Source: a phage
Assembly: GCA_037431425.1 (NCBI GenBank)
Contig: GCA_037431425.1_4129.1
Length of the DNA: 64,000 bases
Reading direction: 5' to 3' (one strand)
Part shown: positions 47,288 through 64,000 of the stretch, in pieces
How positions within the stretch are numbered: the first letter of the stretch is position 1
How the letters are laid out: every line of letters starts with the position of its first letter
The notes under the pieces: model-generated
What the model was told of the DNA's origin: nothing
Databases searched by the model: none
What the model saw: only the letters and a program-made list of their open reading frames with translations
Program-made: the position numbers and the translations under genes

Positions 47288-47290
47288 ATA

Positions 47291-48478: not shown

Positions 48479-48480
48479 AG

Positions 48481-48503: not shown

Positions 48504-48509
48504 ATTTTA

Positions 48510-49859: not shown

Positions 49860-49900
49860 ATTTCCCTCCTTTATTCATTATACTATATTTAATACTAAAA
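49860..49900 (-). promoter_or_regulatory. conserved leader/promoter box
   Basis: minus strand GTATTAAATATAGTATAATGAATAAAGGAGGGAAATATG; TATAAT at 49877-49882; no -35. Confidence 0.55.
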
Positions 49901-49925
49901 GAAAAAGCCAGTACAGAGTACTGGC
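49901..49925 (-). terminator. rho-independent terminator
   Basis: GCCAGTAC..AGTACTGGC plus T-run on minus strand. Confidence 0.75.
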
Positions 49926-49931
49926 ATTATT

Positions 49932-51083: not shown

Positions 51084-51124
51084 ATTTCCCTCCTTTATTC
51101 ATTATACTATATTTAATACTAAAA
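51084..51124 (-). promoter_or_regulatory. conserved leader/promoter box
   Basis: identical to the 49860 copy. Confidence 0.55.
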
Positions 51125-51125
51125 G

Positions 51126-51150
51126 AAAAAGCCAGTACTTGAGTACTGGC
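51126..51150 (-). terminator. rho-independent terminator
   Basis: GCCAGTACTTGAGTACTGGC (two AGTACT) with flanking A and T runs. Confidence 0.75.
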
Positions 51151-51157
51151 TTTCTTA

Positions 51158-52348: not shown

Positions 52349-52386
52349 ATCCCCTCCTTATTCATTATACTATATTTAATCAAAAA
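52349..52386 (-). promoter_or_regulatory. conserved leader/promoter box
   Basis: minus strand ..AAATATAGTATAATGAATAAGGAGGGGATATG. Confidence 0.55.
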
Positions 52387-52387
52387 T

Positions 52388-52410
52388 AAAAGCCAGTATC
52401 AAGTACTGGC
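52388..52410 (-). terminator. rho-independent terminator
   Basis: GCCAGTATCAAGTACTGGC. Confidence 0.7.
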
Positions 52411-52424
52411 ATAGTTTTATAATA

Positions 52425-53531
52425 TTATTTCGGCATCGTAATTGCAGACCATGAATTTGTAGTAATTGGACCTGGTATGTACACTAAAGAACCACATGCA
52501 TAAATTTGTCTATTCCCATCATACACAACACTAAAGTTAGTACAAGTAAACAATGACGAATTTAATGGATTGTAAGTATCTAATGTTAGTGTATTCACCC
52601 ACTTATTTGAACCTAGACCACCTGACCTACCAAATGCACCAGTACTGTATATCTTACCTTCAGTTGTTGCATATATATTAACATATGAAGTTGAACTGGA
52701 TTTAGCTATTTTATGTATCTTACTATCAATAGCACTGGAGTTAAATGTAAAAGGATATATTTCTACGTTAGTTGATGAACCATTACCGAGTTGACCAGAA
52801 TACTGCAAGCCAGCGACGTATGTACCACCACCTGAATATGCTATAGTACTAGTACTGTTACCTCCCATTATTTTAACACTAGTTAAACGACTTACTAAAG
52901 TAGTGTACTGACCTTTACTAACACCTAGTGAACCATAACTACTAGTACCACATCCAATAAGGTTACCGTTGGATGTTAAGATTAATGTGTTGTTTTGTGT
53001 ACCATATATATCAGCAACTTCATTTGTACCAGTATTCAGTACTAACACAAAAGCACTCTGTGAATTAGGATATCCACCACCGAGTGAATAGTTACTGTTC
53101 ATGCCTCTTCCATAAACCTTTGTACCACTAGCATCTACGTAGTGCATCGTATCTGAACCAATTGATATCATTTTAATATTAGATATGTGTGGAAATGAAG
53201 AAGTAACATCTAAACCACCCAAGGGGATTGCAGTATTACCCGTACCTAACTGAGAAGTAACTCCGTGCATTCTGAACTCTTCTCCTTTGAGATACAGAAG
53301 ATTGTACCCACCAGCCCATGCATCAGAAACACCCTCTGCAACTAATATCCAATTATTTTTTTCCGCTGTACCAACGGCATTCAACTGCCAATATGAATTA
53401 TCTCCACATCCATATAATGTACCATCACTATATAGTACGTACAAATTATTGGTTCCACAAAATACTTTCTTGATCGTTATACCTTCTGGAGCTATATTTC
53501 CATAGGTCATTATTCTTGCAAAAGGTAACAT
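52425..53531 (-). CDS. RCC1-like repeat beta-propeller protein, 368 aa
   Basis: MLPFARIMTYGNIAP; LYGCGDNSYWQLN, LIGCGTSSYGSLGV. Confidence 0.8.
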   Translation of the reverse strand: MLPFARIMTYGNIAPEGITIKKVFCGTNNLYVLYSDGTLYGCGDNSYWQLNAVGTAEKNNWILVAEGVSDAWAGGYNLLYLKGEEFRMHGVTSQLGTGNTAIPLGGLDVTSSFPHISNIKMISIGSDTMHYVDASGTKVYGRGMNSNYSLGGGYPNSQSAFVLVLNTGTNEVADIYGTQNNTLILTSNGNLIGCGTSSYGSLGVSKGQYTTLVSRLTSVKIMGGNSTSTIAYSGGGTYVAGLQYSGQLGNGSSTNVEIYPFTFNSSAIDSKIHKIAKSSSTSYVNIYATTEGKIYSTGAFGRSGGLGSNKWVNTLTLDTYNPLNSSLFTCTNFSVVYDGNRQIYACGSLVYIPGPITTNSWSAITMPK

Positions 53532-53570
53532 ATCCCCTCCTTATTCATTATACTATATTTAATACAAATA
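53532..53570 (-). promoter_or_regulatory. conserved leader/promoter box
   Basis: same box as other copies. Confidence 0.55.
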
Positions 53571-53572
53571 AG

Positions 53573-53595
53573 AAAAGCCAGTATCAAGTACTGGC
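53573..53595 (-). terminator. rho-independent terminator
   Basis: GCCAGTATCAAGTACTGGC. Confidence 0.7.
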
Positions 53596-53601
53596 CTATA
53601 T

Positions 53602-54771
53602 TTAAACTGGCGAATCTAATATAAATTCTAAACTACTAATGCCACCATATGTGACATCTGTTCCCGTGCTATATACAAAATTACCATCAGTTATATAAGT
53701 TCGGTTATAACTACCTGCCATCTGTGACTTACTATAATCAAACCCATCAGGTACGATTGCTTTGGTATATACTAATGCATTAGTAGATGTACCAATACCT
53801 AACATACCAGCTTGTGTAGATTGATTGTAGCCGCAACAATATATACCATCTGTTGTAGCAATAACTTGGTTATAATATGAAGTATTGTTAGCAATGCTTA
53901 CTACATCACCAGGTGGCATTAGTGATGCTGTTTGTACCTCAAATGCTCTATAATCTTTGAGAGAACCATCTTTCCCATCTGCTTGTGCACCAAATATTCT
54001 TGAACCACCATTTGCGATGATAGTTTTACCAGTAGGATCAGTGCCTATTGCCATTGCCATTGAAGTACCATTATTCACATAGTACTTTATATTAATTGTA
54101 TTACTTAAGCTGGTAGGAGCACCATAATATATATTATATAACTTACTTCCTGAACTTGTAACTGCATTGACTCTTCCTGTATAAAATAACCATCCTTGGT
54201 TTGTAACATAACCGTGCATTAAATTACTTGCAAACAATTTAACAGGTAATTGATTTGCTACGGTAGGAACAGTACTTTTGACGAATCTACCAGAAACATA
54301 GTTAATTGTTGTTCCATCACCCAACTGACCATCCGACCCTACTCCAGTACTCCATATTGTTTGGTCTGATAGTAACACACTTGTAGTCTGATAACTAATG
54401 GCTATATCTAATATTGGTAATGTTAATGTATTGAATATAGGCATAGCAGATGTCCATATTGATACTCCTGACCCTTTCATACCAACAGTTGTTGAACTTC
54501 CACTGTACCATATTTCATTATTGCTTTTCTTAACAACTATCGACGTGGCTCCCATCCAAAAATCTTCAACACCAGAAGTACTAAAAGTCCATGTAGTAAC
54601 AGTATTTTTGTGACCTAAACCCAAAATACCATATGCATTATCACCACGCACATATAAATCACCACTGTTTGTTAAAACAGCAACATTATCGTTGTTAGCA
54701 AGTATTTTTTTAATATTTGGTTTAGCAGGTGCAATATTCCCGTACTTAACCATCCTCGCAAAAGGTAACAA
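53602..54771 (-). CDS. RCC1-like repeat beta-propeller protein, 389 aa
   Basis: TTG start with GGAGA SD and non-conserved leader; LYVRGDNAYGILGLGHK, IWSTGVGSDGQLGDG. Confidence 0.8.
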   Translation of the reverse strand: MLPFARMVKYGNIAPAKPNIKKILANNDNVAVLTNSGDLYVRGDNAYGILGLGHKNTVTTWTFSTSGVEDFWMGATSIVVKKSNNEIWYSGSSTTVGMKGSGVSIWTSAMPIFNTLTLPILDIAISYQTTSVLLSDQTIWSTGVGSDGQLGDGTTINYVSGRFVKSTVPTVANQLPVKLFASNLMHGYVTNQGWLFYTGRVNAVTSSGSKLYNIYYGAPTSLSNTINIKYYVNNGTSMAMAIGTDPTGKTIIANGGSRIFGAQADGKDGSLKDYRAFEVQTASLMPPGDVVSIANNTSYYNQVIATTDGIYCCGYNQSTQAGMLGIGTSTNALVYTKAIVPDGFDYSKSQMAGSYNRTYITDGNFVYSTGTDVTYGGISSLEFILDSPV

Positions 54772-54810
54772 AATTAAATCTCCAAAATTAAAATAATTAT
54801 ATAGTATTTA

Positions 54811-54843
54811 CAAAAATACCAGTACATATTTCAGTACTGGTAT
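54811..54843 (-). terminator. rho-independent terminator
   Basis: ACCAGTAC-ATATTTCA-GTACTGGT. Confidence 0.65.
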
Positions 54844-54847
54844 ATTA

Positions 54848-55969
54848 TTAAAAGGGCAACGGTAACTCAGTAAAAGAACTTACGTCCGGTAAACCATACA
54901 TTGAATTAGCATCACCACAGTAATACCACTTCGTAGAATCATGTACCACCGATAAACGCAGTGCACATAACACTTCCTGTATGTCATTAAACACCATCGG
55001 GACTAACTCATATGTATCTGCAAATGAAGATACACCACCACTCGCATGAAAAGTATTTGTCCCAGCATAAAATAACTGATTAGTGTTCTTACCCACAGCA
55101 AATGTAATCAAATTCCCATCATTCTCCCATAAAGAAGAAAACTTATCAACACTACCAGAAAGCTCTGTGTAAGTACTCGTAATGGCATTAACCGCCGCCG
55201 CATTACCCATCTGTTTATTCAAGTTCTGCCCAGCAATAAAATATCTCGTTCGTGCACTAGAATCAGTATATAATAACCCAGTGTTCGTGGTCATCATTCC
55301 AATGTCCTTAATCGTCATACCAGGCTGTGAATAACTTAGATACGAAGTTAAATTAACATTATTACCCAACGAACCGTTAGAACTCATGCCACAACGATGT
55401 AATATACCACTTGTATCAACGTAGATAGTACTAACACCACTCGTATACAACTCTTGTACATTATTCGCAATAAACACAGCAGTCGCCTTATTACTAACCC
55501 CACCAAATGATAGGTTATTATCAAATCCCTTAGCGTATAATTGATTATTAGTAGTCAATAATCCAATCGTGTAATAAGACATTTTCATATCCCTTACTGT
55601 ACTCAAATCTACTGCCCCAAATTGATACGTAACATCTGTCCATTTGAAAATCTGTGCACTACCAACACCACCCGTTTCAAACCATTTGTCACCACAGTAC
55701 AATATGCGATTATCCTTAGTAAAGATAACTGTTAACGCTCCACTACCACACGCAAACTTTACATCACTTCTAACCTTCGTCCAATCACGTACATAGGTAG
55801 TGGTGTTATTACCTATACCTAACTTGCCATAACGGTTATAACCACGCACCCATAAATCACCACTCTTAGTAATTAATAGTAATGCGTCTCCTGTACTTAT
55901 TATTCGAAATCCCGATCTAGGATCAGGTACAATATTCCCGTACTTAACCATTCTCCCAAAAGGTAACAT
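54848..55969 (-). CDS. RCC1-like repeat beta-propeller protein, 373 aa
   Basis: MLPFGRMVKYGNIVP; LWVRGYNRYGKLGIGNN. Confidence 0.8.
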   Translation of the reverse strand: MLPFGRMVKYGNIVPDPRSGFRIISTGDALLLITKSGDLWVRGYNRYGKLGIGNNTTTYVRDWTKVRSDVKFACGSGALTVIFTKDNRILYCGDKWFETGGVGSAQIFKWTDVTYQFGAVDLSTVRDMKMSYYTIGLLTTNNQLYAKGFDNNLSFGGVSNKATAVFIANNVQELYTSGVSTIYVDTSGILHRCGMSSNGSLGNNVNLTSYLSYSQPGMTIKDIGMMTTNTGLLYTDSSARTRYFIAGQNLNKQMGNAAAVNAITSTYTELSGSVDKFSSLWENDGNLITFAVGKNTNQLFYAGTNTFHASGGVSSFADTYELVPMVFNDIQEVLCALRLSVVHDSTKWYYCGDANSMYGLPDVSSFTELPLPF

Positions 55970-56008
55970 AATTCCCTCCTTTATTCATTATATCATATTT
56001 ACCCAAAA
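55970..56008 (-). promoter_or_regulatory. conserved leader/promoter box (first gene of array)
   Basis: minus strand ..AAATATGATATAATGAATAAAGGAGGGAATTATG. Confidence 0.55.
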
Positions 56009-56013
56009 AACAC

Positions 56014-56042
56014 TTGACACCCTTTCAGTACTGTTGTACGAT
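56014..56042 (+). promoter_or_regulatory. promoter TTGACA-N17-TACGAT with AGTACT in spacer
   Basis: divergent from the RCC1 array; drives the small-gene array. Confidence 0.6.
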
Positions 56043-56067
56043 AGAAGGAATATTAGGAGAACTACAC

Positions 56068-56295
56068 ATGACAAATACCCTTAAGTACTACCTCAATACT
56101 CTGCCCGACCTAGAGTACGGGAAGTTTCTCGCAGATAGTTCGTGGCTGATTGAGCTAAAAACACATAACAGCCCTGGATGCACCCTTATGATGAACAATG
56201 CTATTGATACCCTTATAGTGAGTATTTTACATAGCAATATCTACAAGGATAACAATAAACAATTAACAAAAATATTAGTACTGCTATCTCTATGA
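56068..56295 (+). CDS. small tandem-array protein, 75 aa
   Basis: trimmed to ATG 56068 with AGGAGA SD; KYYLNTLP N-terminal pattern. Confidence 0.65.
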   Translation: MTNTLKYYLNTLPDLEYGKFLADSSWLIELKTHNSPGCTLMMNNAIDTLIVSILHSNIYKDNNKQLTKILVLLSL

Positions 56296-56495
56296 ATATC
56301 GAACAGTTCTACATCAATGCACTACCAACTAAAAGTCTTCAAGAAAGCCTACTGTATACACAAAAGAATTTTAAAAACTTCAAACGTTGCCCTAAACTAC
56401 TGAACTCGTACATGAATAATATCATAAGAAATGTTTTACAAGGAGAAGAAAGTATGCAATACTATCACATCATTATCCTTATATTGGAGTACTAA
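56292..56495 (+). CDS. small tandem-array protein, 67 aa
   Basis: ATGA coupling; EQFYINALP; ends ..ILILEY. Confidence 0.65.
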   Translation: MNIEQFYINALPTKSLQESLLYTQKNFKNFKRCPKLLNSYMNNIIRNVLQGEESMQYYHIIILILEY

Positions 56496-56496
56496 T

Positions 56497-56706
56497 ATGA
56501 ATACCGAACATAAAGAATTCTACACCAAATACCTCAGCAACGAAGAACAATTGTTTCTAAGAAGTGTATCACCTTTACGTATAGATACACCACACGCCAG
56601 AGAATGCTTTAATAATTGTATACGTAGTACCCTAGAAGCAATCGAATATAATAACAAAAATATTATGTACTCCAGTTTAATCGGACTAATATACTTCTAT
56701 GAATAA
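56497..56706 (+). CDS. small tandem-array protein, 69 aa
   Basis: GTACTAATATG junction; HKEFYTKYLS; paralogue of 59716. Confidence 0.65.
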   Translation: MNTEHKEFYTKYLSNEEQLFLRSVSPLRIDTPHARECFNNCIRSTLEAIEYNNKNIMYSSLIGLIYFYE

Positions 56707-56890
56707 TCATAAAGATTTCTATTGCAGTAAACTACACAAACAATACAGAGATTCATTTCCCAATGAACCTATGGATATGAATAGTCCCTTTTATAACTTT
56801 GACTTCAGACTGGAGACACGTTATGCAATAGAACATCAATTTCCTGAAACTAAGTACTTATCTATCATGAACCTCATCTTTAAGTTCTAA
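56699..56890 (+). CDS. small tandem-array protein, 63 aa
   Basis: HKDFYCSKL; paralogue of 59918. Confidence 0.6.
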   Translation: MNNHKDFYCSKLHKQYRDSFPNEPMDMNSPFYNFDFRLETRYAIEHQFPETKYLSIMNLIFKF

Positions 56891-56942
56891 AAGGTGCACC
56901 AAGGACAGAGTATTTTAATATAGTAAGGCTAATTACACTACC

Positions 56943-57128
56943 ATGAATCACATAAGCTACTACTACCAACAACTATCCGACAGAGACAAGTACAGTCACA
57001 ACTCCCATGTGTGGTACTACAAACGCGGCAGTATAAGAGACAAACATCATTACTTCAGTGCTGCTATAACAGAAGTACTAACAACTAAGTACACGTACAG
57101 AGCAGTACTGAAACTTATCTCTATATAA
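56943..57128 (+). CDS. small tandem-array protein (LKLISI subtype), 61 aa
   Basis: ends AVLKLISI. Confidence 0.65.
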   Translation: MNHISYYYQQLSDRDKYSHNSHVWYYKRGSIRDKHHYFSAAITEVLTTKYTYRAVLKLISI

Positions 57129-57136
57129 GGTACTAT

Positions 57137-57322
57137 ATGAATACATTTGAGTACTATACCAATAAACTATCTATGCCTGAAAGATCTCATCTCTATGTGT
57201 GGAGAAATGCGTATAAAAACGGAAATAAACTTATACAAAGAAATTCCCTTACAGTGTGTACCAATTTAATTAACGCAGAGTACCGCACATATATTGAAGT
57301 ACTGAAACTCATCTCTATCTAA
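57137..57322 (+). CDS. small tandem-array protein (LKLISI subtype), 61 aa
   Basis: MNTFEYYTNKL..EVLKLISI. Confidence 0.65.
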   Translation: MNTFEYYTNKLSMPERSHLYVWRNAYKNGNKLIQRNSLTVCTNLINAEYRTYIEVLKLISI

Positions 57323-57330
57323 GGTACTCT

Positions 57331-57510
57331 ATGCAAGAATTCTATATCTATAATCTCCAGCACAAAGATAGATACAACTATAATCAATTCCAAAGGTACT
57401 ACACCGTCGGGAACATCAAAGATAAAAAACGATACCTACTATCATGTACTGTAGATGCACAAAACAAAAAGTACACGTACAGAGAAGTACTGAAACTAAT
57501 TTCTATTTGA
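57331..57510 (+). CDS. small tandem-array protein (LKLISI subtype), 59 aa
   Basis: hand-translated MQEFYIYNLQ..EVLKLISI; below track cut-off. Confidence 0.6.
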   Translation: MQEFYIYNLQHKDRYNYNQFQRYYTVGNIKDKKRYLLSCTVDAQNKKYTYREVLKLISI

Positions 57511-57518
57511 GGTAATAT

Positions 57519-57707
57519 ATGAATACTTTTGAGTACTACTTCAATAAACTAAATTCCATAGAACAAAATATGTACAATTCATATATTAAGTACTATCAAT
57601 CATCTGCACCTGGAATTAAAAATATATCAATAAAGATTATCACTAACCGTGTACTGACATCTGAACGTTATATGTATATGGATGCACTGAAACTCATCTC
57701 TATGTAA
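57519..57707 (+). CDS. small tandem-array protein (LKLISI subtype), 62 aa
   Basis: MNTFEYYFNKL..DALKLISM. Confidence 0.65.
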   Translation: MNTFEYYFNKLNSIEQNMYNSYIKYYQSSAPGIKNISIKIITNRVLTSERYMYMDALKLISM

Positions 57708-57717
57708 GGAATAAACT

Positions 57718-57897
57718 ATGAACAATTTCTATATAGAACACATAACCATAAAAGACCGTTTCATGTACGACACCTTCGTGAAGTACTACAACCTCGCAAC
57801 TAACAGTACTAAAAATATCAATCTCAATAGCTGCATACACCAAGCACTAACAAAAGAAAATCCCTTCAGGGAAATCCTTGCACTTGCATCTGTATAA
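57718..57897 (+). CDS. small tandem-array protein (LKLISI subtype), 59 aa
   Basis: hand-translated MNNFYIEHIT..EILALASV; below track cut-off. Confidence 0.55.
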   Translation: MNNFYIEHITIKDRFMYDTFVKYYNLATNSTKNINLNSCIHQALTKENPFREILALASV

Positions 57898-57907
57898 AGG
57901 AATTCAA

Positions 57908-58573
57908 ATGAAACTTAATCCACAAAGTAAACAATACCTTAAGCACTTTAAGTACCTCAACAGTATTCAAGCAGAATCTATTACATCTTCTTATACTTAT
58001 CACCCGAATATACTAAAGAAACGAAATAAAAAGAATAAATCCAGTACAGATCTAGTATCAAAGAACCTCAAATCGTACTTGAAGAAAAATAATATCTCTA
58101 TTCATTGTGCGAATATCTATAATACTGATTTAAAAGCATTGAGTACTAATACCAGCACAAAAACACTAAAGAATACATCTATCTATATCTATATGCACCT
58201 GGATAATATCCCGTGCACTATAATTCTATCTTTCGGGAATGTATACTTCTTCGGGAATTGTAATACCACCCATGATATCCGTACAGCACAATTCCAAATC
58301 GGAGATATGTACTGCATGGGTTCAGAAAAAATACACGATAACATGCATTTCTTCCAACAGCAACGTACAGAAGAAACTAATACAGTACTAGAATTCCTCA
58401 AAGAACTTCAAAACAAAGAATTATCTCAAGAAGAACTATTCATGTACAGCACCGTAATCAATAATCCAGAACTCTACAAAAACGCGTACAATCTAACAAA
58501 ACATGTGCAGGAACTTATTAGTACTAATAAGAAAATTCATCACCTCATGACATATATTGCAAACTATGCATAA
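57908..58573 (+). CDS. long-form EE-x-F-x-ST family protein, 221 aa
   Basis: trimmed to ATG 57908 with AAGGA SD; basic N-terminus; motif SQEELFMYSTV. Confidence 0.7.
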   Translation: MKLNPQSKQYLKHFKYLNSIQAESITSSYTYHPNILKKRNKKNKSSTDLVSKNLKSYLKKNNISIHCANIYNTDLKALSTNTSTKTLKNTSIYIYMHLDNIPCTIILSFGNVYFFGNCNTTHDIRTAQFQIGDMYCMGSEKIHDNMHFFQQQRTEETNTVLEFLKELQNKELSQEELFMYSTVINNPELYKNAYNLTKHVQELISTNKKIHHLMTYIANYA

Positions 58574-58751
58574 AGAATACTACCAAAATAAACTCCCAAT
58601 GCATCTACAACACCTTGTACCAACAGAACCATTGGGTATAGAAAAAGACTACGAAAAAGACTACTTCATTAAGTGCACCAAATCCTCAATAGATATTGAG
58701 GACTATAATCGAGTACTGTATCACATCCTTTTACTAATATATAAGTACTAA
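58566..58751 (+). CDS. small tandem-array protein (IYRY subtype), 61 aa
   Basis: MHKEYYQNKLPMHLQHL..LLLIYKY. Confidence 0.65.
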   Translation: MHKEYYQNKLPMHLQHLVPTEPLGIEKDYEKDYFIKCTKSSIDIEDYNRVLYHILLLIYKY

Positions 58752-58752
58752 T

Positions 58753-58947
58753 ATGAATAATGAATACTATAAAGAATACTACCAAAATAAACTCCCTATG
58801 TATCTACAACACCTTATACCAACAAAACCTATTGGCATAAAAGATCATGAAAAAATAATGTTCCAACAATGTTCTAAGTACATCCTAATAGACGATCACA
58901 ATCCATATATGCTGTACTATATAATAATGCTAACATTCAGGTACTAA
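58753..58947 (+). CDS. small tandem-array protein (IYRY subtype), 64 aa
   Basis: KEYYQNKLPMYLQHL..IMLTFRY. Confidence 0.65.
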   Translation: MNNEYYKEYYQNKLPMYLQHLIPTKPIGIKDHEKIMFQQCSKYILIDDHNPYMLYYIIMLTFRY

Positions 58948-58948
58948 T

Positions 58949-59131
58949 ATGCACAAAGAATACTACACACAATTTCTCCCCAGTATATTTGAACACTACG
59001 CCAGATATAAAGTCCCACTGGATAACGATTTGGCAGTACTCGGATTCAATAACTGCATAGAACGCAGTATAGAAAATAGTAGTTCATATGACCAACTATA
59101 TAACACTATCCTACTTATATTCAGGTACTAA
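58949..59131 (+). CDS. small tandem-array protein (IYRY subtype), 60 aa
   Basis: MHKEYYTQFLP..ILLIFRY. Confidence 0.65.
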   Translation: MHKEYYTQFLPSIFEHYARYKVPLDNDLAVLGFNNCIERSIENSSSYDQLYNTILLIFRY

Positions 59132-59132
59132 T

Positions 59133-59321
59133 ATGTTTAAAGAATACTACGCAAAATATTTCCCAATGTATCTCAGAACTAATCTATTAGATAAACCTCG
59201 CGATATCAATGCTCAAAACGATAAAGTGTACTTTATTATGTGCACTAAAGCATGTATACTAGATCATGACAGCTACCATCGAGTACTCTATCATACACTG
59301 TACCTAACATTCGTGTACTAA
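59133..59321 (+). CDS. small tandem-array protein (IYRY subtype), 62 aa
   Basis: trimmed to ATG 59133; MFKEYYAKYFPMYL..LYLTFVY. Confidence 0.65.
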   Translation: MFKEYYAKYFPMYLRTNLLDKPRDINAQNDKVYFIMCTKACILDHDSYHRVLYHTLYLTFVY

Positions 59322-59331
59322 AGAGAACATT

Positions 59332-59526
59332 ATGCAACACAAGTTCAAAGAATTCTACTTAAGCCGCCTGGAACTAAACTCCCAAATGCTTATACCACTA
59401 AAACCAATAGATATCAAGGATAAGAAAAATACCCAACAATTCATCTACCATACACAGTGTGCTATCTCCCCAGATTATAATACATATAAATTGTACTATA
59501 TCATCGCCCTAATACTCAGGTACTAA
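59332..59526 (+). CDS. small tandem-array protein (IYRY subtype), 64 aa
   Basis: FKEFYLSRL..IALILRY. Confidence 0.65.
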   Translation: MQHKFKEFYLSRLELNSQMLIPLKPIDIKDKKNTQQFIYHTQCAISPDYNTYKLYYIIALILRY

Positions 59527-59528
59527 TC

Positions 59529-59714
59529 ATGTATAAAGAATACTACACACAATTTGTTAAAGAAAACTACAAATATGCCGTCCCCATAAAACCCTTAAAT
59601 GCTAATGACCCAAATACTATATTCCTGTTTAATGACGCAATACGTACAGTACTCAATACTAAAGATGAACAAGTGCAGTACGTATTCTTACTTTTACTTA
59701 TATACAGACACTAA
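59529..59714 (+). CDS. small tandem-array protein (IYRY subtype), 61 aa
   Basis: MYKEYYTQFV..LLLLIYRH. Confidence 0.65.
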   Translation: MYKEYYTQFVKENYKYAVPIKPLNANDPNTIFLFNDAIRTVLNTKDEQVQYVFLLLLIYRH

Positions 59715-59715
59715 T

Positions 59716-59925
59716 ATGAATAAAGTACATAAAGAATTCTATTCCAGATACCTCAGCCTATCAGAACAAATGTTTATAAGATCTACACCACCATTAAGTA
59801 CTGATACTTACTTCGGTAGAGTATGCTACAATAAATGTGTACAAATGACTTTAAACGCAAACGACAATAATAACAGTACTAACCTGTACTCAGGCATCAT
59901 AGGTATACTATTTCTATATGATTAA
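59716..59925 (+). CDS. small tandem-array protein, 69 aa
   Basis: trimmed to ATG 59716; HKEFYSRYLS; paralogue of 56497. Confidence 0.65.
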   Translation: MNKVHKEFYSRYLSLSEQMFIRSTPPLSTDTYFGRVCYNKCVQMTLNANDNNNSTNLYSGIIGILFLYD

Positions 59926-60100
59926 AGAATATAAAGACTTCTACATAAGAAAACTAACATTCGTCCCCGTAAGAATATACAAAGAATGCGACCCAAGATT
60001 ATACCTATGGCACTTCAATGAGTGCATAAAAGATTCTATATACCCTAAGAACTATAAAGAACAATTGTGCTCAGTACTAACACTAGTACTATCATATTAA
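59918..60100 (+). CDS. small tandem-array protein, 60 aa
   Basis: YKDFYIRKL; paralogue of 56699. Confidence 0.6.
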   Translation: MIKEYKDFYIRKLTFVPVRIYKECDPRLYLWHFNECIKDSIYPKNYKEQLCSVLTLVLSY

Positions 60101-60113
60101 TAGAGATAATACT

Positions 60114-60326
60114 ATGAATAAAGAACATAAAAACTTCTATATAAGTAAACTAAAAGAAAATGAACAAGTATGGATTAGATCTATAATAGAACTGGCATTT
60201 AATAGATACGCACTGAATAGATGTACACAGATTGCTATAGACCCTTATCCCATTGAAGAGGATGAAAAGGATGTACAGTACAATCAGTACTACTATATCT
60301 TAATGCTTATATATAGACCTATATAG
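60114..60326 (+). CDS. small tandem-array protein, 70 aa
   Basis: HKNFYISKL..LMLIYRPI; last gene before the noncoding region. Confidence 0.65.
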   Translation: MNKEHKNFYISKLKENEQVWIRSIIELAFNRYALNRCTQIAIDPYPIEEDEKDVQYNQYYYILMLIYRPI

Positions 60327-60340
60327 GAAACTACACAGGC

Positions 60341-60423
60341 GAATTGCTAAAATTCAGCCTGCTATACGTCTGAATTGTTAAAATTCAGCCTGCTATACGT
60401 CTGAATTGTTAAAATTCAGCCTG
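60341..60423. repeat. 31-bp direct tandem repeat, 2.7 copies
   Basis: GAATTG(C/T)TAAAATTCAGCCTGCTATACGTCT at 60341, 60372, and partial at 60403; each unit contains the inverted repeat TGAATT..AATTCA. Confidence 0.9.
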
Positions 60424-60467
60424 GACAAATGCGATCACCAGGATTCTCTCCAGGCTAAACACCGTAG

Positions 60468-60534
60468 TCATAAGTAATCATAAGTAATCATATATAAACA
60501 TTTATATGAGCATTTATAAGCATTTATAAGCACC
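60468..60534. repeat. short tandem decamers
   Basis: CATAAGTAAT x2.5, then GCATTTATAA x2, each block flanked by ACCGTAG. Confidence 0.75.
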
Positions 60535-61027
60535 GTAGAATCACAGAATGATTATATATGATTCAGTACTGCCCCAAAAGTATTCAGTACTGAAGAATTA
60601 CCCCTGAATGATTCAGTACTGATATGCCACTAAGTAGGCAGAGGAAGTCTGCCGTACTTTGTAGTTTCCAAGCTCCTTTTCCATTTTGCAAATTACATCA
60701 AATGTAATCAAAAGTAATCACGTAATGATTAGTACTGAAATATTAGTTTCATCTTTTTTCAAATACCTTTTTACCCTTCGGGGTAAATGTATTTTTACCC
60801 ATTTACCTTTGGGGTAAAATCCCATTACCCCTTGAGGCTCCAGCAAAAAGTTGGAAAGTACTCCATCCTAAATCTCGATCCTAAAAATTTTGGAGTACCT
60901 ATGAAATAAAAGTTGGATCTTCGAAAGTTGAAATTTACGTTGGGACGTTTATGATTTGTGGGATATAATGATGTTTGTAGTCGGGTAGTTCTCAAGAATA
61001 TCAGTACTGAATGGTGAAAGAAAGTTA

Positions 61028-61055
61028 TTGACATTATGATTCAGTACTGTATAAT
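61028..61055 (+). promoter_or_regulatory. promoter TTGACA-N16-TATAAT with AGTACT in spacer, inside ORF-free region
   Basis: read directly; downstream has GNRA hairpin CTGTC-GTGA-GACAG and no ORF. Confidence 0.6.
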
Positions 61056-61435
61056 GTTCTACATAGAGAGATGAGTTGCTGCGAACAATTCATTTACTCT
61101 ACCTCCTGTCGTGAGACAGTACAGAAAAGATAGTTCCTCCTGTGGTGGTACATCTTTTTGAACCTCATATGAAAATCGTAATAACAGTACTGGTATTAAC
61201 AGAATGGTATCAGTACTGACTTTAATCTAATACATTATACCACCAGCTTGTGCTGGTGGATTCCCTCTAACAGTATTCAGTACTACATGATAGTCTTCAT
61301 CCTCCTAGGGTAACATAGTGAGGGCTATTGTGGGAGTACTGAATACTCCTTTCAAAAGATAGAATAATGGTATAGTACCGACGGATTTTGGGCGTAGTTA
61401 CCCTGGGTGTATTTTGGACGTAGATATGTCTAGCC

Positions 61436-61578
61436 CTCCAGAAGTCTGGAAGTAAAGATGGCTATCTATCTAGACGGCTAAACGGCTAGATTTCTAGATG
61501 GCTGTATGGCTAGACGTTTGGATGGCTAAACGGCTAAACGGCTAGATGGTTACACGTCTGGAAGTATAGACGGCTAAA
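61436..61578. repeat. iteron block: 8 GGCTA cores bracketed by direct repeats GTCTGGAAGTA
   Basis: GGCTA at 61460, 61476, 61484, 61508, 61524, 61532, 61540, 61572 (consensus ACGGCTAAA/ACGGCTAGA); GTCTGGAAGTA at 61444-61454 and 61556-61566. Confidence 0.85.
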
Positions 61579-61927
61579 TCAAAATTTTTATTTTGTTTTT
61601 CCAATAGTTCCCCTACCGCGTGAGGATATTTTTTCCCCGCAGTATCTGGAGTTAGATTTTTCTGAATCTGGAATCATTATCTAATAAACTGGGGGCAATG
61701 TCAACCGCCTGGATGAATATTTTTAAAAAATAATCTAGTACTAAATTTTGGGCGTAACTATGCACCCGGTGGGCTTGAGTCTTTCTCGACTTGATGAAAT
61801 AATTATATCAGTACTGAAAAAATAAAGCAATACCCTAAACGCAAAAAAAATTTAATTAATTTGCTTGCTATTCTGGGCCGTACTATGGTACTATTAATTC
61901 AGTACTGAGAAAGTGCTTTTACCTGCT

Positions 61928-61999
61928 AGGGTGCGGGAGTGTATCCTTTTTAAATTTTATGAATTTTGGGCAGATCTCCGCACCCTGTGGGTTAGTGCC
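61928..61999. repeat. GC-rich dyad element (long hairpin), copy A
   Basis: AGGGTGCGGGAG ... CTCCGCACCCT arms around an AT-rich 45-nt core; shares the 16-mer GGTGCGGGAGTGTATC with the 63898 copy. Confidence 0.7.
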
Positions 62000-62210
62000 T
62001 TGTGTCCGGCTTATGTAGTAATTATACGCTTTTTCAGTACTGAGTCAATACCTAAAAACAAAATAATTGAAAATAATTTAACGCGTTTAAACGGCCCGTA
62101 AAGCCCTGGAATGATTAGAATGGTGCAAATGTATAGCTTAGGTGTAATATCTCGTTAGAATGCGACTGAGGCCGTTTTACGGGGTATAGGGATGATTTAG
62201 TGGATTGATT

Positions 62211-62298
62211 CAGTACTGAATAATAGTACTCCTATATAGAAAGATAGTTCCCCTGGATGGTTGCAGTACTGAATAATAGTACTCCTATATAGAAAGAA
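62211..62298. repeat. 35-bp direct repeat x2
   Basis: CAGTACTGAATAATAGTACTCCTATATAGAAAGA at 62211 and 62264. Confidence 0.85.
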
Positions 62299-62329
62299 AA
62301 CTATTTTAAAAAGTATTTGTAGAAAGTAC

Positions 62330-62388
62330 TTGCACCGTACTGATAAAAGCGTATAATGTTTTACATCGAGAGCGGGAGCACTTCCCGC
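62330..62388 (+). promoter_or_regulatory. conserved promoter plus 5' hairpin cassette, copy 1
   Basis: TTGCAC-N16-TATAAT, then TTTTACATCGAGAGCGGGAGCACTTCCCGC (stem GCGGGA/TCCCGC). Confidence 0.7.
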
Positions 62389-62412
62389 TACACATTAAGA
62401 GAGATTAAAACG

Positions 62413-62775
62413 ATGGCGACTCAAATCAATAAAATTATTGCTAACCTGGTTAACTTCCGTGAAGAGATGAAAGGTCTTCCGGCTGAAACGGTAAAAATTC
62501 ACATTTCAGCTTATCGGGAACTTATTGCAATGTTACCGCTTAAGCGTGAACAATACGCCGCTACCGTGATGCTTGATGCGATGATCAATAAGATGATCGC
62601 CAGTGATTTAACGATGGTTTATCAGTACATGGGCGAAAATTTCGCGGTGTCTGGTAAGCCAGTACCAGGGATGGCAACTACTGAGGAATTGCACGGTTTA
62701 AATTTAAAACAAGATGCATGGGATAATATGCCTCGTTTCCTGGTATGGGCTGACAGTGGCAAAATTTACAAATAA
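62413..62775 (+). CDS. hypothetical protein, 120 aa
   Basis: trimmed to ATG 62413 (MATQINK) downstream of the cassette; higher GC than the rest of the window. Confidence 0.75.
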   Translation: MATQINKIIANLVNFREEMKGLPAETVKIHISAYRELIAMLPLKREQYAATVMLDAMINKMIASDLTMVYQYMGENFAVSGKPVPGMATTEELHGLNLKQDAWDNMPRFLVWADSGKIYK

Positions 62776-62789
62776 GTTTAATAAAGTAC

Positions 62790-62875
62790 TTGCCAACTAA
62801 GTTTAAAAGCGTATAATACTTTACATCAGGTGCAACGGGAAGTTTAAAAACTTCCCTATAGGGGAATAGTTCCCC
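62790..62875 (+). promoter_or_regulatory. promoter plus 5' hairpin cassette, copy 2 (variant)
   Basis: TTGCCA-N16-TATAAT; hairpins GGGAAG..CTTCCC and GGGGA-ATAGT-TCCCC. Confidence 0.65.
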
Positions 62876-62896
62876 ACTATATAAGAGGATTAAAAA

Positions 62897-63136
62897 ATGG
62901 CTAAATCAAAAATGTTCTTAGGTCACAAAAACAAAACTCATTGGAATGTAAGCCTTTGGATTAATAACGATGAATCATTATACCGGTTGGCCCTGGACTT
63001 TATTGCCGCTAATACTAATCGCAATGATGCGGCCCGTCATATGATGTTATTTTTAGAACAGACTGGACAAGATAAAACACCGGACGGATTCAAATATAGC
63101 ACTACTGCGATCCGTGCGGCGATGGTTGGAATGTAA
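62897..63136 (+). CDS. hypothetical protein, 79 aa
   Basis: AGAGGA SD. Confidence 0.75.
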   Translation: MAKSKMFLGHKNKTHWNVSLWINNDESLYRLALDFIAANTNRNDAARHMMLFLEQTGQDKTPDGFKYSTTAIRAAMVGM

Positions 63137-63149
63137 TAGAATTTATTTA

Positions 63150-63184
63150 AAGTACTATCGCAAAAAATGATAGTACTTTATAAT
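63150..63184 (+). promoter_or_regulatory. AGTACT-based hairpin abutting TATAAT
   Basis: AAGTACTATC..GATAGTACTT stem followed directly by TATAAT. Confidence 0.5.
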
Positions 63185-63221
63185 AGTGTTTTATTCATAC
63201 ACCAACGATAAGGGCAATAGC

Positions 63222-63488
63222 ATGAATATTAAGTATTTTGCGACGCGTGAACAAGCTCGGAAGGCGGCGAAAGTGGAAGGTGCAACGTTTAAAGATATGG
63301 GCATACAATCGGAACGTGGTAAACGTTGGGCCATTGTAAAGCGTAGTACAGCCAGATCATTACAGTACTGGTTAGCGGCTTTAAAAAGTCCTGCTAGTGT
63401 ATCGCGTCGAGTGGTAGAAATAAAGCTCGACCGTAAGGGGAATCGTGTTACCGTGTACCGTACTAAAAAGATAGCAGTACTTGAATAA
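63222..63488 (+). CDS. basic hypothetical protein, 88 aa
   Basis: trimmed to ATG 63222 with AAGGG SD. Confidence 0.7.
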   Translation: MNIKYFATREQARKAAKVEGATFKDMGIQSERGKRWAIVKRSTARSLQYWLAALKSPASVSRRVVEIKLDRKGNRVTVYRTKKIAVLE

Positions 63489-63495
63489 AAAGAAC

Positions 63496-63554
63496 TTGCA
63501 AACTATGTTTAATGGCGTATAATGTTTTACATCGAGAGCGGGAACACTTCCCGC
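63496..63554 (+). promoter_or_regulatory. conserved promoter plus 5' hairpin cassette, copy 3
   Basis: TTGCAA-N16-TATAAT, then TTTTACATCGAGAGCGGGAACACTTCCCGC; near-identical to copy 1. Confidence 0.7.
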
Positions 63555-63575
63555 CTATAAACTGGAGTAATAAAA

Positions 63576-63806
63576 ATGACTAATATGTATATGACTGAAG
63601 TTAAAACCGTAAAAGATACTACCACGAATAAAACTACTTACTTACAGCGGATCTGCGGTGTATGGCAACGTATCAGCAAATCAAAGTACTATAAATTAAC
63701 ATCATATGCCAATCGTTCGGATTCATTCAGTACTGAAATAAAAGGTAATAAAGTACACCAATACGGCACTTATTATTATTATAGCCTGGACGCGATTGCA
63801 GTATAA
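63576..63806 (+). CDS. hypothetical protein, 76 aa
   Basis: GGAG SD. Confidence 0.7.
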   Translation: MTNMYMTEVKTVKDTTTNKTTYLQRICGVWQRISKSKYYKLTSYANRSDSFSTEIKGNKVHQYGTYYYYSLDAIAV

Positions 63807-63836
63807 GTAGTTTACAAATCTTTACAATTGCCGGTA

Positions 63837-63865
63837 TTGACTTAAAATGTCAGTACTGGCATAAT
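63837..63865 (+). promoter_or_regulatory. promoter TTGACT-N17-CATAAT with AGTACT in spacer
   Basis: read directly; transcribes GC-rich dyad copy B. Confidence 0.55.
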
Positions 63866-63885
63866 GTATCTATTGAAACGAACAA

Positions 63886-63966
63886 TTTGGCCCACGGGGT
63901 GCGGGAGTGTATCTATAGCAAAATTAGTTTAGTATAATTACAATTGTGCACCCGGTGGGTTAGCTG
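63886..63966. repeat. GC-rich dyad element, copy B
   Basis: CCCACGGGGTGC (63891-63902) pairs with GCACCCGGTGGG (63948-63959), 11/12; same 16-mer as copy A. Confidence 0.7.
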
Positions 63967-64000
63967 TTGTCATGGGGTATATTATGCCAGTACTTGATAA

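What the first reader, a model, noticed from the sequence alone, without database searches (positions are those of the whole stretch)
62318..63560. Conserved promoter plus 5'-hairpin cassette heading each gene after the noncoding region
Two near-identical copies (62330-62388 and 63496-63554) read TTGCA(C/A)-N16-(C)GTATAATGTTTTACATCGAGAGCGGGA(G/A)CACTTCCCGC. A variant lies at 62790-62875. Every transcript would therefore begin with the same roughly 30-nt leader ending in a GCGGGA/TCCCGC hairpin.

These genes are GC-richer than the other 62 kb, which suggests a different origin or temporal class, for example immediate-early genes next to a genome end. The hairpin could be a stabiliser, an RNase III/E site or a regulator-binding site.
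Basis: seen in the sequence. Interest (0 to 1): 0.5.

Follow-up and report, generated by a model that had tools for sequence, protein, structure and literature searches.

The report
Early-gene promoter plus 5' hairpin cassettes
The repeats are real copies of a modular "strong host-type promoter + 5' RNA hairpin + ribosome site" cassette that heads most of the ~50 small genes in the 21-kb terminal repeat of a jumbo coliphage; it is a new variant of the promoter/stem-loop cassettes (PeSLs) known from T4-like phages, not a new kind of element.

Summary
The two copies share an exact 26-mer (0 expected by chance) and 39 of 40 nt from the -10 box to the end of the hairpin. The variant at 62790-62875 is real.

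The window comes from an Asteriusvirus jumbo coliphage (121Q/PBECO4/phAPEC6 group). By homology, the physical left genome end lies at about window 60633, so these are the first genes of a ~21-kb direct terminal repeat (DTR).

In a complete relative, 27 of 34 consensus sigma-70 promoters in the DTR are followed by a GC-rich hairpin that starts 4-7 nt after the predicted transcription start. Only 4 of 75 such promoters in the other 335 kb have one (p = 4e-15). Stems covary, no T-run follows them, and the ribosome-binding region stays unpaired.

The same architecture, with homologous ORFs in a different order, occurs in a Klebsiella jumbo phage and in ~150-kb phi92-like phages. One gene-plus-cassette indel is bounded by two cassettes.

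Best reading: these are immediate-early expression cassettes read by host RNA polymerase. The 5'-terminal hairpin most likely stabilises and insulates the mRNA, and the repeated cassette allows gene shuffling as PeSLs do. They differ from PeSLs in that the hairpin lies inside its own transcript. Transcription starts and hairpin function remain untested.

The parts
60633..60633 (.). Predicted left physical end of the genome and start of the ~21-kb direct terminal repeat
   Evidence: Position 1 of vB_Ec-M-J (annotated DTR 1-21525) aligns to window 60633. Several records that begin at the physical end match window 60802 at their positions 139-149. fEgEco12 termini were verified experimentally (PMC13070987).
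60634..62317 (+). About 1.7 kb without credible ORFs, just inside the end. It holds a consensus promoter (61028-61055) and many CAGTACTG palindromes, 8-bp tandem repeats and other repeats.
62325..62357 (+). Cassette 1 promoter: AGTACT overlapping the -35 box (62325-62330), -35 TTGCAC 62330-62335, 16-nt spacer, -10 TATAAT 62352-62357
   Evidence: AGTACT sits at this same offset in 19 of 32 DTR promoters of the relative.
62365..62412 (+). Cassette 1 predicted 5' UTR. The predicted start is A at 62365, the 8th nt after the -10 box. Six unpaired nt (AUCGAG) are followed by hairpin 62371-62389 (7 bp, -12.3 kcal/mol), an unpaired A-rich linker and a purine-rich SD-like stretch (AAGAGAG, about 62397-62403).
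   Evidence: fold; RBS unpaired in the centroid
62413..62775 (+). Gene 1, 120 aa, unknown function (phrog_7352)
   Evidence: 60% aa identity to a phi92-like phage ORF.
62785..62896 (+). Cassette 2 (variant): AGTACT 62785-62790, -35 TTGCCA 62790-62795, -10 62812-62817, predicted start 62825, hairpins 62837-62856 and 62861-62875. The first hairpin lies in a 29-nt insertion that two relatives lack.
62897..63136 (+). Gene 2, 79 aa, DUF7249 / phrog_871
   Evidence: 87% aa identity to ESCO32 ORF 6094.
63156..63488 (+). Gene 3 (63222-63488, 88 aa) with a different promoter (TATCGC-17-TATAAT, 63156-63184) and no leader hairpin. This is the exception to 'each gene'.
   Evidence: (ortholog at L003 2861)
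63496..63575 (+). Cassette 3: -35 TTGCAA 63496-63501, -10 63518-63523, predicted start 63531, hairpin 63538-63554 (extended 63535-63556, -12.0 kcal/mol), SD GGAG 63564-63567
63576..63806 (+). Gene 4, 76 aa, unknown function (phrog_5293)
   Evidence: 96% aa identity to an ORF of the phi92-like phage ESCO32.
36725..36790 (+). The only cassette look-alike in the 60.6 kb outside the repeat: TTGACA-16-TATAAT GTTTACC, then hairpin GGGATG/CATCCC (-9.1 kcal/mol), then SD and ATG
   Evidence: Ortholog at vB_Ec-M-J 324771.

Best explanation
This is a multi-copy, modular early-gene expression cassette of an Asteriusvirus jumbo coliphage, concentrated in the long direct terminal repeat. Each unit has these parts, in order:
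- an AGTACT-flanked, near-consensus sigma-70 promoter (TTGCAA or TTGACA, 16 bp, TATAAT);
- a conserved start region (GTTTTAC-A-U-C/A/G-G/A-A-G);
- a GC-rich hairpin of 6-10 bp, G-rich arm first, beginning 4-7 nt from the predicted 5' end;
- an unstructured A-rich linker, a Shine-Dalgarno sequence and the ATG of a small ORFan.

Proposed mechanism:
- Unmodified host RNA polymerase fires all these promoters as soon as the repeat enters the cell. This is inferred from promoter quality and position.
- Every mRNA therefore starts with the hairpin. This follows from promoter geometry.
- The hairpin most likely limits 5'-end-dependent decay by RppH and RNase E. It also keeps the G-rich leader from interfering with the open ribosome-binding site, giving each unrelated ORF a standard, strong expression context. 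This step is inferred by analogy with the ompA-type and T7 gene 10 5' stem-loops.
- The ~70-90-bp cassette is repeated head to tail, so it also provides homology for insertion, deletion and exchange of single-gene units, as proposed for PeSLs. This is partly shown by comparative evidence.
For: Real and non-random: three-copy repeat family; exact 26-mer twice, 0 expected.

Identity and position: Asteriusvirus, 96% to ph0011; DTR; end at window 60633; PMC13070987 via (termini verified in a relative).

One cassette per gene:
- 26 promoter-plus-hairpin cassettes by the first scan of the vB_Ec-M-J repeat, all on the + strand, every spacer 16 nt, about 85-nt intergenic gaps. Past the end of the repeat the genes abut or overlap and have no cassettes.
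- whole genome, 27 of 34 promoters in the repeat have the hairpin against 4 of 75 outside. Mean leader dG is -11.0 against -3.4 kcal/mol. Fisher p = 4e-15.

Structure selected:
- 8 bp paired in all 17 distinct sequences, 6 pairs with changes on both sides, covariation 0.50 against 0.23 shuffled (0 of 500 shuffles reach it).
- 70 distinct sequences, 9 of 9 pairs with changes on both sides, 0.455 against 0.202.
- 59 unique hairpins, mean -12.7 kcal/mol, first paired nt at +4 to +7 in 50 of 59, + strand more stable than - strand in 40 against 14.

Not a terminator: (0 of 55 hairpins followed by 5 or more T in 8 nt). One search shows that canonical T-run terminators exist separately in the same repeat.

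RBS left open.

Breadth: searches show the same architecture in the Klebsiella phage fENko-Kae01 DTR and in Justusliebigvirus ESCO32 (11 of 19 early genes), with homologous ORFs (60-96% aa) in a different order.

Shuffling: (an ORF-plus-cassette indel bounded by two near-identical cassettes; mosaic spacer within an otherwise identical cassette).

Mechanistic precedent:
- 5' hairpins impede RppH and RNase E (PMC3997798).
- The T7 phi10 leader starts with an analogous hairpin, GGGAGACC/GGUUUCCC.
- RB49 PeSL promoters are very strong in reporter assays (PMC2839356).
Against: - No transcription start, RNA-seq or half-life data exist for this phage group in the literature searched.
- With the predicted start, most hairpins are preceded by 3-6 unpaired nt. 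Published work (own knowledge: Emory, Bouvet and Belasco 1992) found protection only when very few nt are unpaired, so the stabiliser role is uncertain.
- The strand-neutral count of wobble pairs (G.T 11 against A.C 4, p = 0.12) only weakly favours selection on the + strand RNA.
- The covariation counts come from paralogous, related copies, and from alignments chosen or fitted by structure.
- About 20% of repeat promoters (a class with the leader ACTTACATCAAC...) and gene 3 of the window work without a hairpin, so it is not obligatory.
- A systematic test of indel breakpoints against cassettes was not informative.
Confidence: 0.6

Rival explanations
1. Classical PeSL function. The hairpin acts mainly on RNA coming from the upstream gene, as a terminator, attenuator or 3'-end protector. 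It would insulate each cassette from read-through, and its presence in the cassette's own leader would be incidental.
For: - PeSL stem-loops of RB49/phi1 are also G-run/loop/C-run. One of them reduced lacZ expression like rrnB T1 (PMC2839356).
- Intergenic gaps of ~85 nt leave no room for a separate terminator.
- Hairpins would also protect upstream mRNAs from 3' exonucleases (own knowledge).
Against: - None of 55 hairpins is followed by a T-run, while ordinary T-run terminators occur separately in the same repeat.
- The hairpin keeps a fixed distance from the -10 box and start site, which a pure terminator does not need.
- In genuine PeSLs the stem-loop lies upstream of, or inside, the promoter, not in the transcribed leader.
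Confidence: 0.18
2. RNA operator. The shared 5' hairpin is the recognition site of a phage-encoded or host RNA-binding protein or nuclease. That factor would control the whole set of terminal-repeat transcripts together, for example timed shut-off of early mRNAs or translational repression.
For: - One structural motif heads dozens of unrelated genes of one temporal block.
- The upper stem is conserved (GAA...TTC, nearly invariant A-U pairs at the loop end), and so is the single-stranded 5' flank.
- Many stems contain GGAG, the target of T4 RegB (own knowledge).
Against: - Loop length (3-8 nt) and loop and stem sequences vary widely. This fits poorly with a sequence-specific binder.
- No candidate protein was identified.
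- GGAG is absent from many copies, including the two focal ones.
- No Rfam family matches.
Confidence: 0.12
3. DNA-level element. The inverted repeat just downstream of the start site is a palindromic operator for a dimeric repressor that shuts the early promoters off, or it is a cruciform.
For: An inverted repeat centred near +15 is a classic operator position, as with lac O1 (own knowledge). It is present at nearly all promoters of one class.
Against: - The half-sites covary instead of being conserved.
- Arm length (6-10 bp) and the spacing between arms (3-8 nt) vary.
- G.T positions break DNA symmetry.
- The fixed AGTACT palindromes at the -35 and -10 boxes are better operator candidates.
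Confidence: 0.05
4. Passive repeat. The hairpin is only a passenger of a promoter module that spread by duplication and recombination, and it has no function of its own.
For: - The cassettes are clearly related by descent and recombine.
- Some repeat promoters work without a hairpin.
Against: - Pairing is maintained through many changes on both sides.
- It is maintained across distant phage lineages whose stems differ in sequence.
- The enrichment is sharp against non-repeat promoters of equal quality.
Confidence: 0.05

Closest known systems
PeSLs (promoter-early stem-loops) of T4-like phages RB49/phi1, PST/T4, nt-1/KVP40 (Arbiol et al. 2010, PMC2839356; Comeau et al. 2014, PMC4122927)
   Same: - Multi-copy ~70-100-bp intergenic cassettes: an A/T-rich stretch, a near-consensus sigma-70 early promoter, a G-run/loop/C-run stem-loop, an SD and an ATG.
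- Clustered in regions full of small ORFans.
- Associated with single-gene indels between close relatives.
   Different: - In RB49 the stem-loop sits in the promoter spacer or over the -10 box (seen directly). In PST and nt-1 it sits upstream of the promoter. In both cases it is not part of the cassette's own mRNA and is read as a terminator. Here it lies at +4/+7 to about +25 of the cassette's own transcript, at a fixed distance, with no T-run.
- Here the cassettes fill a direct terminal repeat of a non-Straboviridae jumbo phage rather than internal hyperplastic regions.
- Here whole units are shared with unrelated ~150-kb phages.
5'-terminal stabilising stem-loops (ompA and papA 5' UTRs; T7 gene 10 leader)
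   Same: - A stable hairpin at or near the 5' end, followed by an unstructured, AU-rich ribosome-binding region.
- The T7 phi10 leader GGGAGACCACAACGGUUUCCCUC folds at -16 kcal/mol. It even shares the string ACGGUUUCCC with several cassette copies.
- 5' hairpins impede RppH and RNase E (PMC3997798).
   Different: - The predicted hairpin starts 4-7 nt from the end rather than 0-2 nt.
- The promoter is sigma-70 type, not T7 type.
- The element is a repeated family heading dozens of genes.
- Stabilisation has not been measured.
Pre-early (first-step-transfer) genes in the terminal repeat of phage T5
   Same: A long direct terminal repeat carries small host-takeover genes driven by very strong host-type promoters (own knowledge). 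The T5 N25 initial transcribed sequence is also purine-rich, with GAGAG (own knowledge).
   Different: - No sequence homology was tested or claimed.
- T5 is not known to have one promoter-plus-hairpin unit per gene.
- Two-step DNA entry is not known for Asteriusvirus.
Lambda-type nut/boxB and phage N4 hairpin promoters
   Same: A small conserved hairpin lies close to early promoters.
   Different: - No boxA-like motif.
- Loops are not GNRA-like pentaloops.
- The hairpin is downstream of a complete sigma-70 promoter rather than being the promoter itself, as it is in N4.
- Considered and rejected.

Membership tests
PeSL (promoter-early stem-loop cassette) | Near-consensus sigma-70 early promoter with an A/T-rich upstream stretch | tested here: met
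   TTGCAA or TTGACA, 16 nt, TATAAT in all copies, with an AAAGTAC upstream element
PeSL (promoter-early stem-loop cassette) | Adjacent stable stem-loop, typically G-run/loop/C-run | tested here: met
   59 unique hairpins, mean -12.7 kcal/mol, G-rich arm first
PeSL (promoter-early stem-loop cassette) | Stem-loop placed upstream of or within the promoter, so that it acts on upstream transcripts. [quoted passage not shown] | tested here: not met
   Here the stem starts 12-14 nt after the -10 box, which is +4 to +7 of its own transcript. RB49 PeSLs examined directly have it in the spacer or over the -10 box.
PeSL (promoter-early stem-loop cassette) | Many copies clustered in ORFan-rich plastic regions and associated with indels between relatives | tested here: met
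   27 copies in 21.5 kb. A cassette-bounded ORF indel. ORFs shuffled between phage families. A systematic breakpoint test was uninformative.
PeSL (promoter-early stem-loop cassette) | Stem-loop terminates or attenuates transcription; mini-circle formation | not testable with these tools
   This needs reporter assays and inverse PCR. Sequence gives no T-run.
Sigma-70 promoter | -35 and -10 hexamers with a 16-18-bp spacer, intergenic, oriented toward a gene at a consistent distance | tested here: met
   Strand bias is 34 on + against 5 on - in the repeat. Activity not measured.
5'-terminal stabilising stem-loop (ompA/T7 g10 type) | Hairpin within a few nt of the mRNA 5' end | tested here: inconclusive
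   The first paired nt is at +4 to +7 from the predicted start in 50 of 59 copies and at +1 or +2 in 7 of 59. The real start is unknown.
5'-terminal stabilising stem-loop (ompA/T7 g10 type) | Lengthens mRNA half-life in an RNase E/RppH-dependent way | not testable with these tools
   Requires half-life measurements.
Intrinsic (Rho-independent) terminator | GC-rich hairpin immediately followed by a U-run | tested here: not met
   0 of 55 hairpins have 5 or more T in the next 8 nt. None of the cassette hairpins is listed by the terminator scan.
RNase III processing site (T7 early type) | About 20 bp of largely double-stranded RNA | tested here: not met
   Stems are 6-10 bp. The length requirement is from own knowledge.
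Any Rfam RNA family | Covariance-model match | tested here: not met
   No match at E <= 1 in window 60000-64000

The most novel reading that the evidence does not exclude
Large, unrelated enterobacterial myoviruses (Asteriusvirus jumbo phages, a Klebsiella jumbo phage lineage, and phi92/rV5-like phages) draw on a common pool of self-contained single-gene units, each made of promoter, 5' hairpin, RBS and ORFan. The shared 5' hairpin would then be more than a generic stabiliser. It would be a regulon-wide RNA tag, read by a phage or host factor to time or privilege expression of the first-entering genes, and at the same time the recombination handle that moves these genes between phage families.
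Probability: 0.2. Interest if true: 0.65.

Novelty: new variant of a known kind. Interest (0 to 1): 0.45.

Why it matters
- It assigns a concrete regulatory layout to the ~50 unannotated genes of the terminal repeat of Asteriusvirus phages, which are being developed for therapy. Almost every one is its own transcription unit, with a near-consensus host promoter and a standard structured leader. That points to an immediate-early host-takeover regulon.
- It extends the PeSL idea beyond T4-like phages and shows a variant in which the stem-loop belongs to the mRNA. This makes two functions directly testable: mRNA protection or insulation, and cassette-mediated gene shuffling.
- The same units, ORFs included at up to 96% aa identity, appear in phi92-like phages. 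That suggests exchange of early genes between phage families at single-gene resolution.
- The cassettes are also natural, compact, insulated strong-expression parts for E. coli.

Tried and rejected
- RNAalifold on a plain MAFFT alignment of 53 whole cassettes found no hairpin, because variable loop and stem lengths put the arms out of register. I replaced it with a loop-anchored ungapped alignment (A2) and a covariance model (R1).
- Model R1 missed the two focal copies at E <= 1, because they have 3- to 5-nt loops and GCGGGA stems. Genome-wide counts therefore rest on the regex plus RNAfold scan, not on the model.
- Rfam search: nothing.
- Intrinsic terminator: rejected, no T-runs.
- RNase III site: rejected on stem length.
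- boxB/nut-like and N4-type hairpin promoters: rejected on anatomy.
- Palindromic DNA operator: disfavoured by covariation and variable arm spacing.
- Strand asymmetry of wobble pairs as proof of RNA-level selection: only suggestive. The fold-based count gave 36 G.U pairs and 40 against 14 in favour of the + strand. The strand-neutral count gave 11 against 4, p = 0.12.
- Systematic test that indel breakpoints between two relatives fall in cassettes: crude chaining, 3 of 12 breakpoints in 13% of the sequence, not informative. I rely on the one clean example.
- Literature searches found no description of these cassettes in Asteriusvirus, Rak2-like, rV5-like or phi92-like phages, and no transcription-start maps for them. 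One search failed on syntax.
- IMG/VR scan for the exact 22-mer: only 4 contigs, three of ~350 kb and one a 109-kb contig.
- A RegB-like nuclease gene in the phage was not searched for.
Full report
**1. Observation**

The region was read directly.
- Repeat finding gives a three-member direct-repeat family: 62320-62388, 63486-63554 (83% identity over 69 nt) and 62780-62848 (61%).
- The 26-mer TATAATGTTTTACATCGAGAGCGGGA occurs exactly twice in 64 kb. None was expected in 100 shuffles, even with 3 mismatches allowed.
- From the -10 box to the end of the hairpin the two copies differ at one base. The 16-nt promoter spacers differ at most positions.
- Both leaders fold into a single hairpin (-12.3 and -12.0 kcal/mol; z = -3.6 and -3.3 for the first 31 nt). 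The Shine-Dalgarno region and start codon stay unpaired.
- The variant at 62790-62875 has the same promoter and two hairpins.
- The third of the four genes (63222-63488) has another promoter and no hairpin, so 'each gene' overstates the case.
- The end of the window is GC-richer: 38.7% against 33.4%, and no equal-sized window in the first 60.6 kb reaches that value.

**2. Where this lies**

- Megablast places the window in Asteriusvirus, the 121Q/PBECO4/phAPEC6 group of jumbo coliphages. The best hit is ph0011 at 96%.
- Records that start at the physical genome end match window 60802 at their positions 139-149. Position 1 of vB_Ec-M-J aligns to window 60633.
- That record annotates a 21,525-bp direct terminal repeat.
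- The finding therefore covers the first genes, about 1.7 kb inside the left end, of the terminal repeat.

**3. The cassette is a large family, nearly confined to the repeat**

- In the vB_Ec-M-J repeat, most of the 53 small genes are separated by ~85 nt. Each gap holds (AAAGTAC)TTGCAA or TTGACA, 16 nt, TATAAT, GTTTTAC, AT(C/A/G)(G/A)AG, a G-rich hairpin, an A-rich linker, an SD and an ATG.
- Just past the end of the repeat the genes abut or overlap, and the cassettes stop.
- I fetched the whole unique genome and scanned it. On the + strand, 34 promoter-like sites lie in the repeat, and 27 of them have a leader hairpin (dG <= -9 kcal/mol, starting at +8 or earlier). Outside the repeat there are 75 sites in 335 kb, and 4 have a hairpin. 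Mean leader dG is -11.0 against -3.4 kcal/mol. Fisher p = 4e-15.
- Only one outside site (324771, orthologous to window 36725) resembles the cassette.
- In the window's own 60.6 kb outside the repeat, 17 consensus promoters were found. Only the one at 36725 has a comparable hairpin.

**4. The hairpin is under selection for pairing**

- 59 unique hairpins average -12.7 kcal/mol.
- A loop-anchored, ungapped alignment of 17 distinct copies shows 8 bp paired in every sequence, 6 pairs with changes on both sides, and covariation of 0.50 against 0.23 in shuffles (0 of 500 shuffles reach it). Sliding the partner columns by one drops pairing from 91% to 67-69%.
- A covariance-model alignment of 70 distinct matches gives 9 of 9 pairs with double changes and 0.455 against 0.202.
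- Caveat: the copies are paralogues, and the alignments were chosen or fitted by structure.
- The + strand RNA folds more stably than the - strand in 40 cases against 14, and 36 of 516 pairs are G.U. A strand-neutral count of interior wobble positions is only suggestive: G.T 11 against A.C 4, p = 0.12.
- The first paired base is +4 to +7 from the predicted start (the A eight nt after the -10 box) in 50 of 59 copies. The stem begins 12-14 nt after the -10 box. A sigma-70 start, normally 6-9 nt after the -10 box (established knowledge), must therefore lie upstream of it.

**5. What the hairpin is not**

- None of 55 hairpins is followed by 5 or more T in 8 nt, and the terminator scan lists none of them. 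Ordinary T-run terminators do occur elsewhere in the same repeat, for example at L003 4895, 6625, 7357 and 15793.
- Stems of 6-10 bp are too short for RNase III (own knowledge).
- Rfam has no match.
- A palindromic DNA operator is unlikely, because the arms covary instead of being conserved, and arm length and spacing vary.
- The fixed AGTACT palindromes at the -35 box (19 of 32 promoters) and abutting the -10 box (11 of 32) are better operator candidates.

**6. Relatives elsewhere**

- A 93-nt cassette query hits 119 phage records. Besides Asteriusvirus, these include ~140-150-kb Vequintavirinae and Stephanstirmvirinae phages, at about 90% identity over 40-71 nt.
- The Klebsiella aerogenes jumbo phage fENko-Kae01 has the same layout in its own 19.7-kb terminal repeat, with its own stems, for example GGGGGAAacatcTTCCCCC.
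- In the phi92-like Justusliebigvirus ESCO32, 11 of 19 small early genes are preceded by a promoter, CACATAG, a hairpin (GGCGGGAAAtggTTTCCCGCC), an A-rich linker and an SD.
- The ESCO32 ORFs are themselves homologous to Asteriusvirus repeat genes, but in a different order: 96% aa identity to window gene 4, 87% to gene 2, 60% to gene 1, and others to genes 8-18 kb further into the repeat.
- The cassette in front of an orthologous ORF is not always the same variant.
- Between close relatives, vB_Ec-M-J carries one extra ORF flanked by two near-identical cassettes where the window and ph0011 have a single cassette. The window has a private 29-nt hairpin insertion in that leader. The spacer of cassette 1 is mosaic between phages while its flanks are identical.
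- Together this points to exchange of promoter-hairpin-ORF units by recombination within cassettes. A crude systematic breakpoint test was uninformative.

**7. Comparison with what is known**

*PeSLs.* These are cassettes of T4-like phages with a strong sigma-70 early promoter plus a G-run/C-run stem-loop. They cluster in ORFan-rich hyperplastic regions. They are proposed to terminate upstream transcription and to mediate modular shuffling, and mini-circles have been detected (PMC2839356, PMC4122927).
- I looked at genuine RB49 PeSLs. Their stem-loop lies in the promoter spacer or over the -10 box. In PST and nt-1 it lies upstream of the promoter.
- Here it lies inside the cassette's own transcript at a fixed distance. 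One defining feature is therefore not met, while the others are met.
- No paper in the searchable library describes such cassettes, or maps transcription starts, for Asteriusvirus, Rak2-like, rV5-like or phi92-like phages.

*5' stabilising stem-loops.* The closest functional analogues are those of ompA and papA and of the T7 gene 10 leader.
- The T7 phi10 transcript starts with GGGAGACCACAACGGUUUCCC (-16 kcal/mol), followed by an AU-rich RBS region.
- 5' hairpins impede RppH and RNase E (PMC3997798).

*T5.* The terminal-repeat location with strong host-type promoters recalls the T5 pre-early region (own knowledge).

**8. Mechanism proposed**

- Shown: a repeated, structurally constrained cassette, specific to the repeat, with promoter-like geometry and an open RBS; cassette-bounded gene turnover.
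- Follows from geometry: the hairpin is in the 5' leader of each transcript.
- Inferred:
  - immediate-early timing, driven by unmodified host polymerase;
  - protection from 5'-end-dependent decay, and insulation of the RBS from the purine-rich leader;
  - the cassette as a recombination handle.
- Main weakness of the stabiliser step: 3-6 nt are predicted to be unpaired ahead of the stem.
[quoted passage not shown] The repeat of the relatives also carries DksA-like, acetyltransferase and protein-kinase genes. This fits host takeover.

**9. Verdict**

The element is a new variant of a known kind: PeSL-like early cassettes with a transcribed 5' hairpin, filling a jumbo-phage terminal repeat and shared across phage families. 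Interest is moderate, at 0.45. The result is useful for annotation, for phage regulation and as a testable model of gene-cassette exchange, but it is not conceptually surprising.

Noticed in passing
whole window; promoters at 62325-62330, 62785-62790, 63152-63157, 63173-63178: The palindrome AGTACT (often CAGTACTG) is strongly over-represented. There are 158 sites in window 1-60660 (about 21 expected from base composition) and 26 in 60661-64000 (about 1 expected). In a relative there are 983 in 357 kb. In terminal-repeat promoters it sits at two fixed places, overlapping the -35 box and abutting the -10 box. It may be an operator, a modification site or another recognition site.
   Followed up: partly
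window 61458-61577: An array of about 15 degenerate 8-bp tandem repeats (ACGGCTAA / ATGGCTAG ...) lies in the noncoding stretch just inside the genome end. It looks like an iteron or protein-binding array (family D1).
   Followed up: no
window 61028-61160: A perfect consensus promoter (TTGACA-16-TATAAT) has no ORF behind it. The predicted ~100-nt transcript has a 5' hairpin, two CCUCCUGU (anti-SD-like) motifs and a terminator-like hairpin with a U-run (-31.8 kcal/mol, z = -2.5 for 128 nt). This is a candidate small RNA.
   Followed up: partly
window 61744-61783, 61929-62001, 63897-63959: A repeated element has GGGTGCGGGAGTGTATC (exact 17-mer twice) paired with a downstream GCACCC(G/T)GTGGG box, also found in relatives. 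It is possibly a structured RNA or a binding site (families D9, D11, D17).
   Followed up: no
window 62201-62297: A 44-nt direct repeat at 53-bp spacing (93% identity), each copy containing CAGTACTG and AATAGTACT, lies immediately upstream of the first cassette (family D6).
   Followed up: no
window 58949-60326: A tandem array of about seven paralogous small ORFs (60-77 aa, all starting M-x-K-E-Y/H-Y/K...F) lies on the + strand just before the genome end.
   Followed up: no
L003 (vB_Ec-M-J) 10353, 14011, 17286, 20042: There are four copies of AAAGGGATTGACTCCGGTCAGTCCCTTT-GCTATTATAT. This is a 12-bp hairpin whose 5' arm contains a -35 box (TTGACT), followed by a TATTAT -10 box. It is the classical PeSL arrangement (stem-loop over the promoter), and it coexists with the leader-hairpin cassettes.
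   Followed up: no
L003 3693-3810 and 14147-14262; L004 17317-17432: A cassette promoter is followed by a ~90-nt structured, ORF-less leader (ends AUCAGGAC...CCCCUGAU can pair) and then by a second consensus promoter. These are possible small RNAs repeated within the terminal repeat.
   Followed up: no
L005 (Justusliebigvirus ESCO32) 3122-6954 vs window 62413-63806: Small early ORFs of a phi92-like phage are 60-96% identical in protein sequence to Asteriusvirus terminal-repeat ORFs, but in a different order. This indicates cross-family exchange of early genes.
   Followed up: partly
window about 47000-60000 (- strand); L013 7206-24767: GC skew turns negative here. The homologous part of the relative holds 14 tandem paralogous ~380-aa genes on the - strand, annotated 'regulator of chromosome condensation' (RCC1-like).
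   Followed up: no
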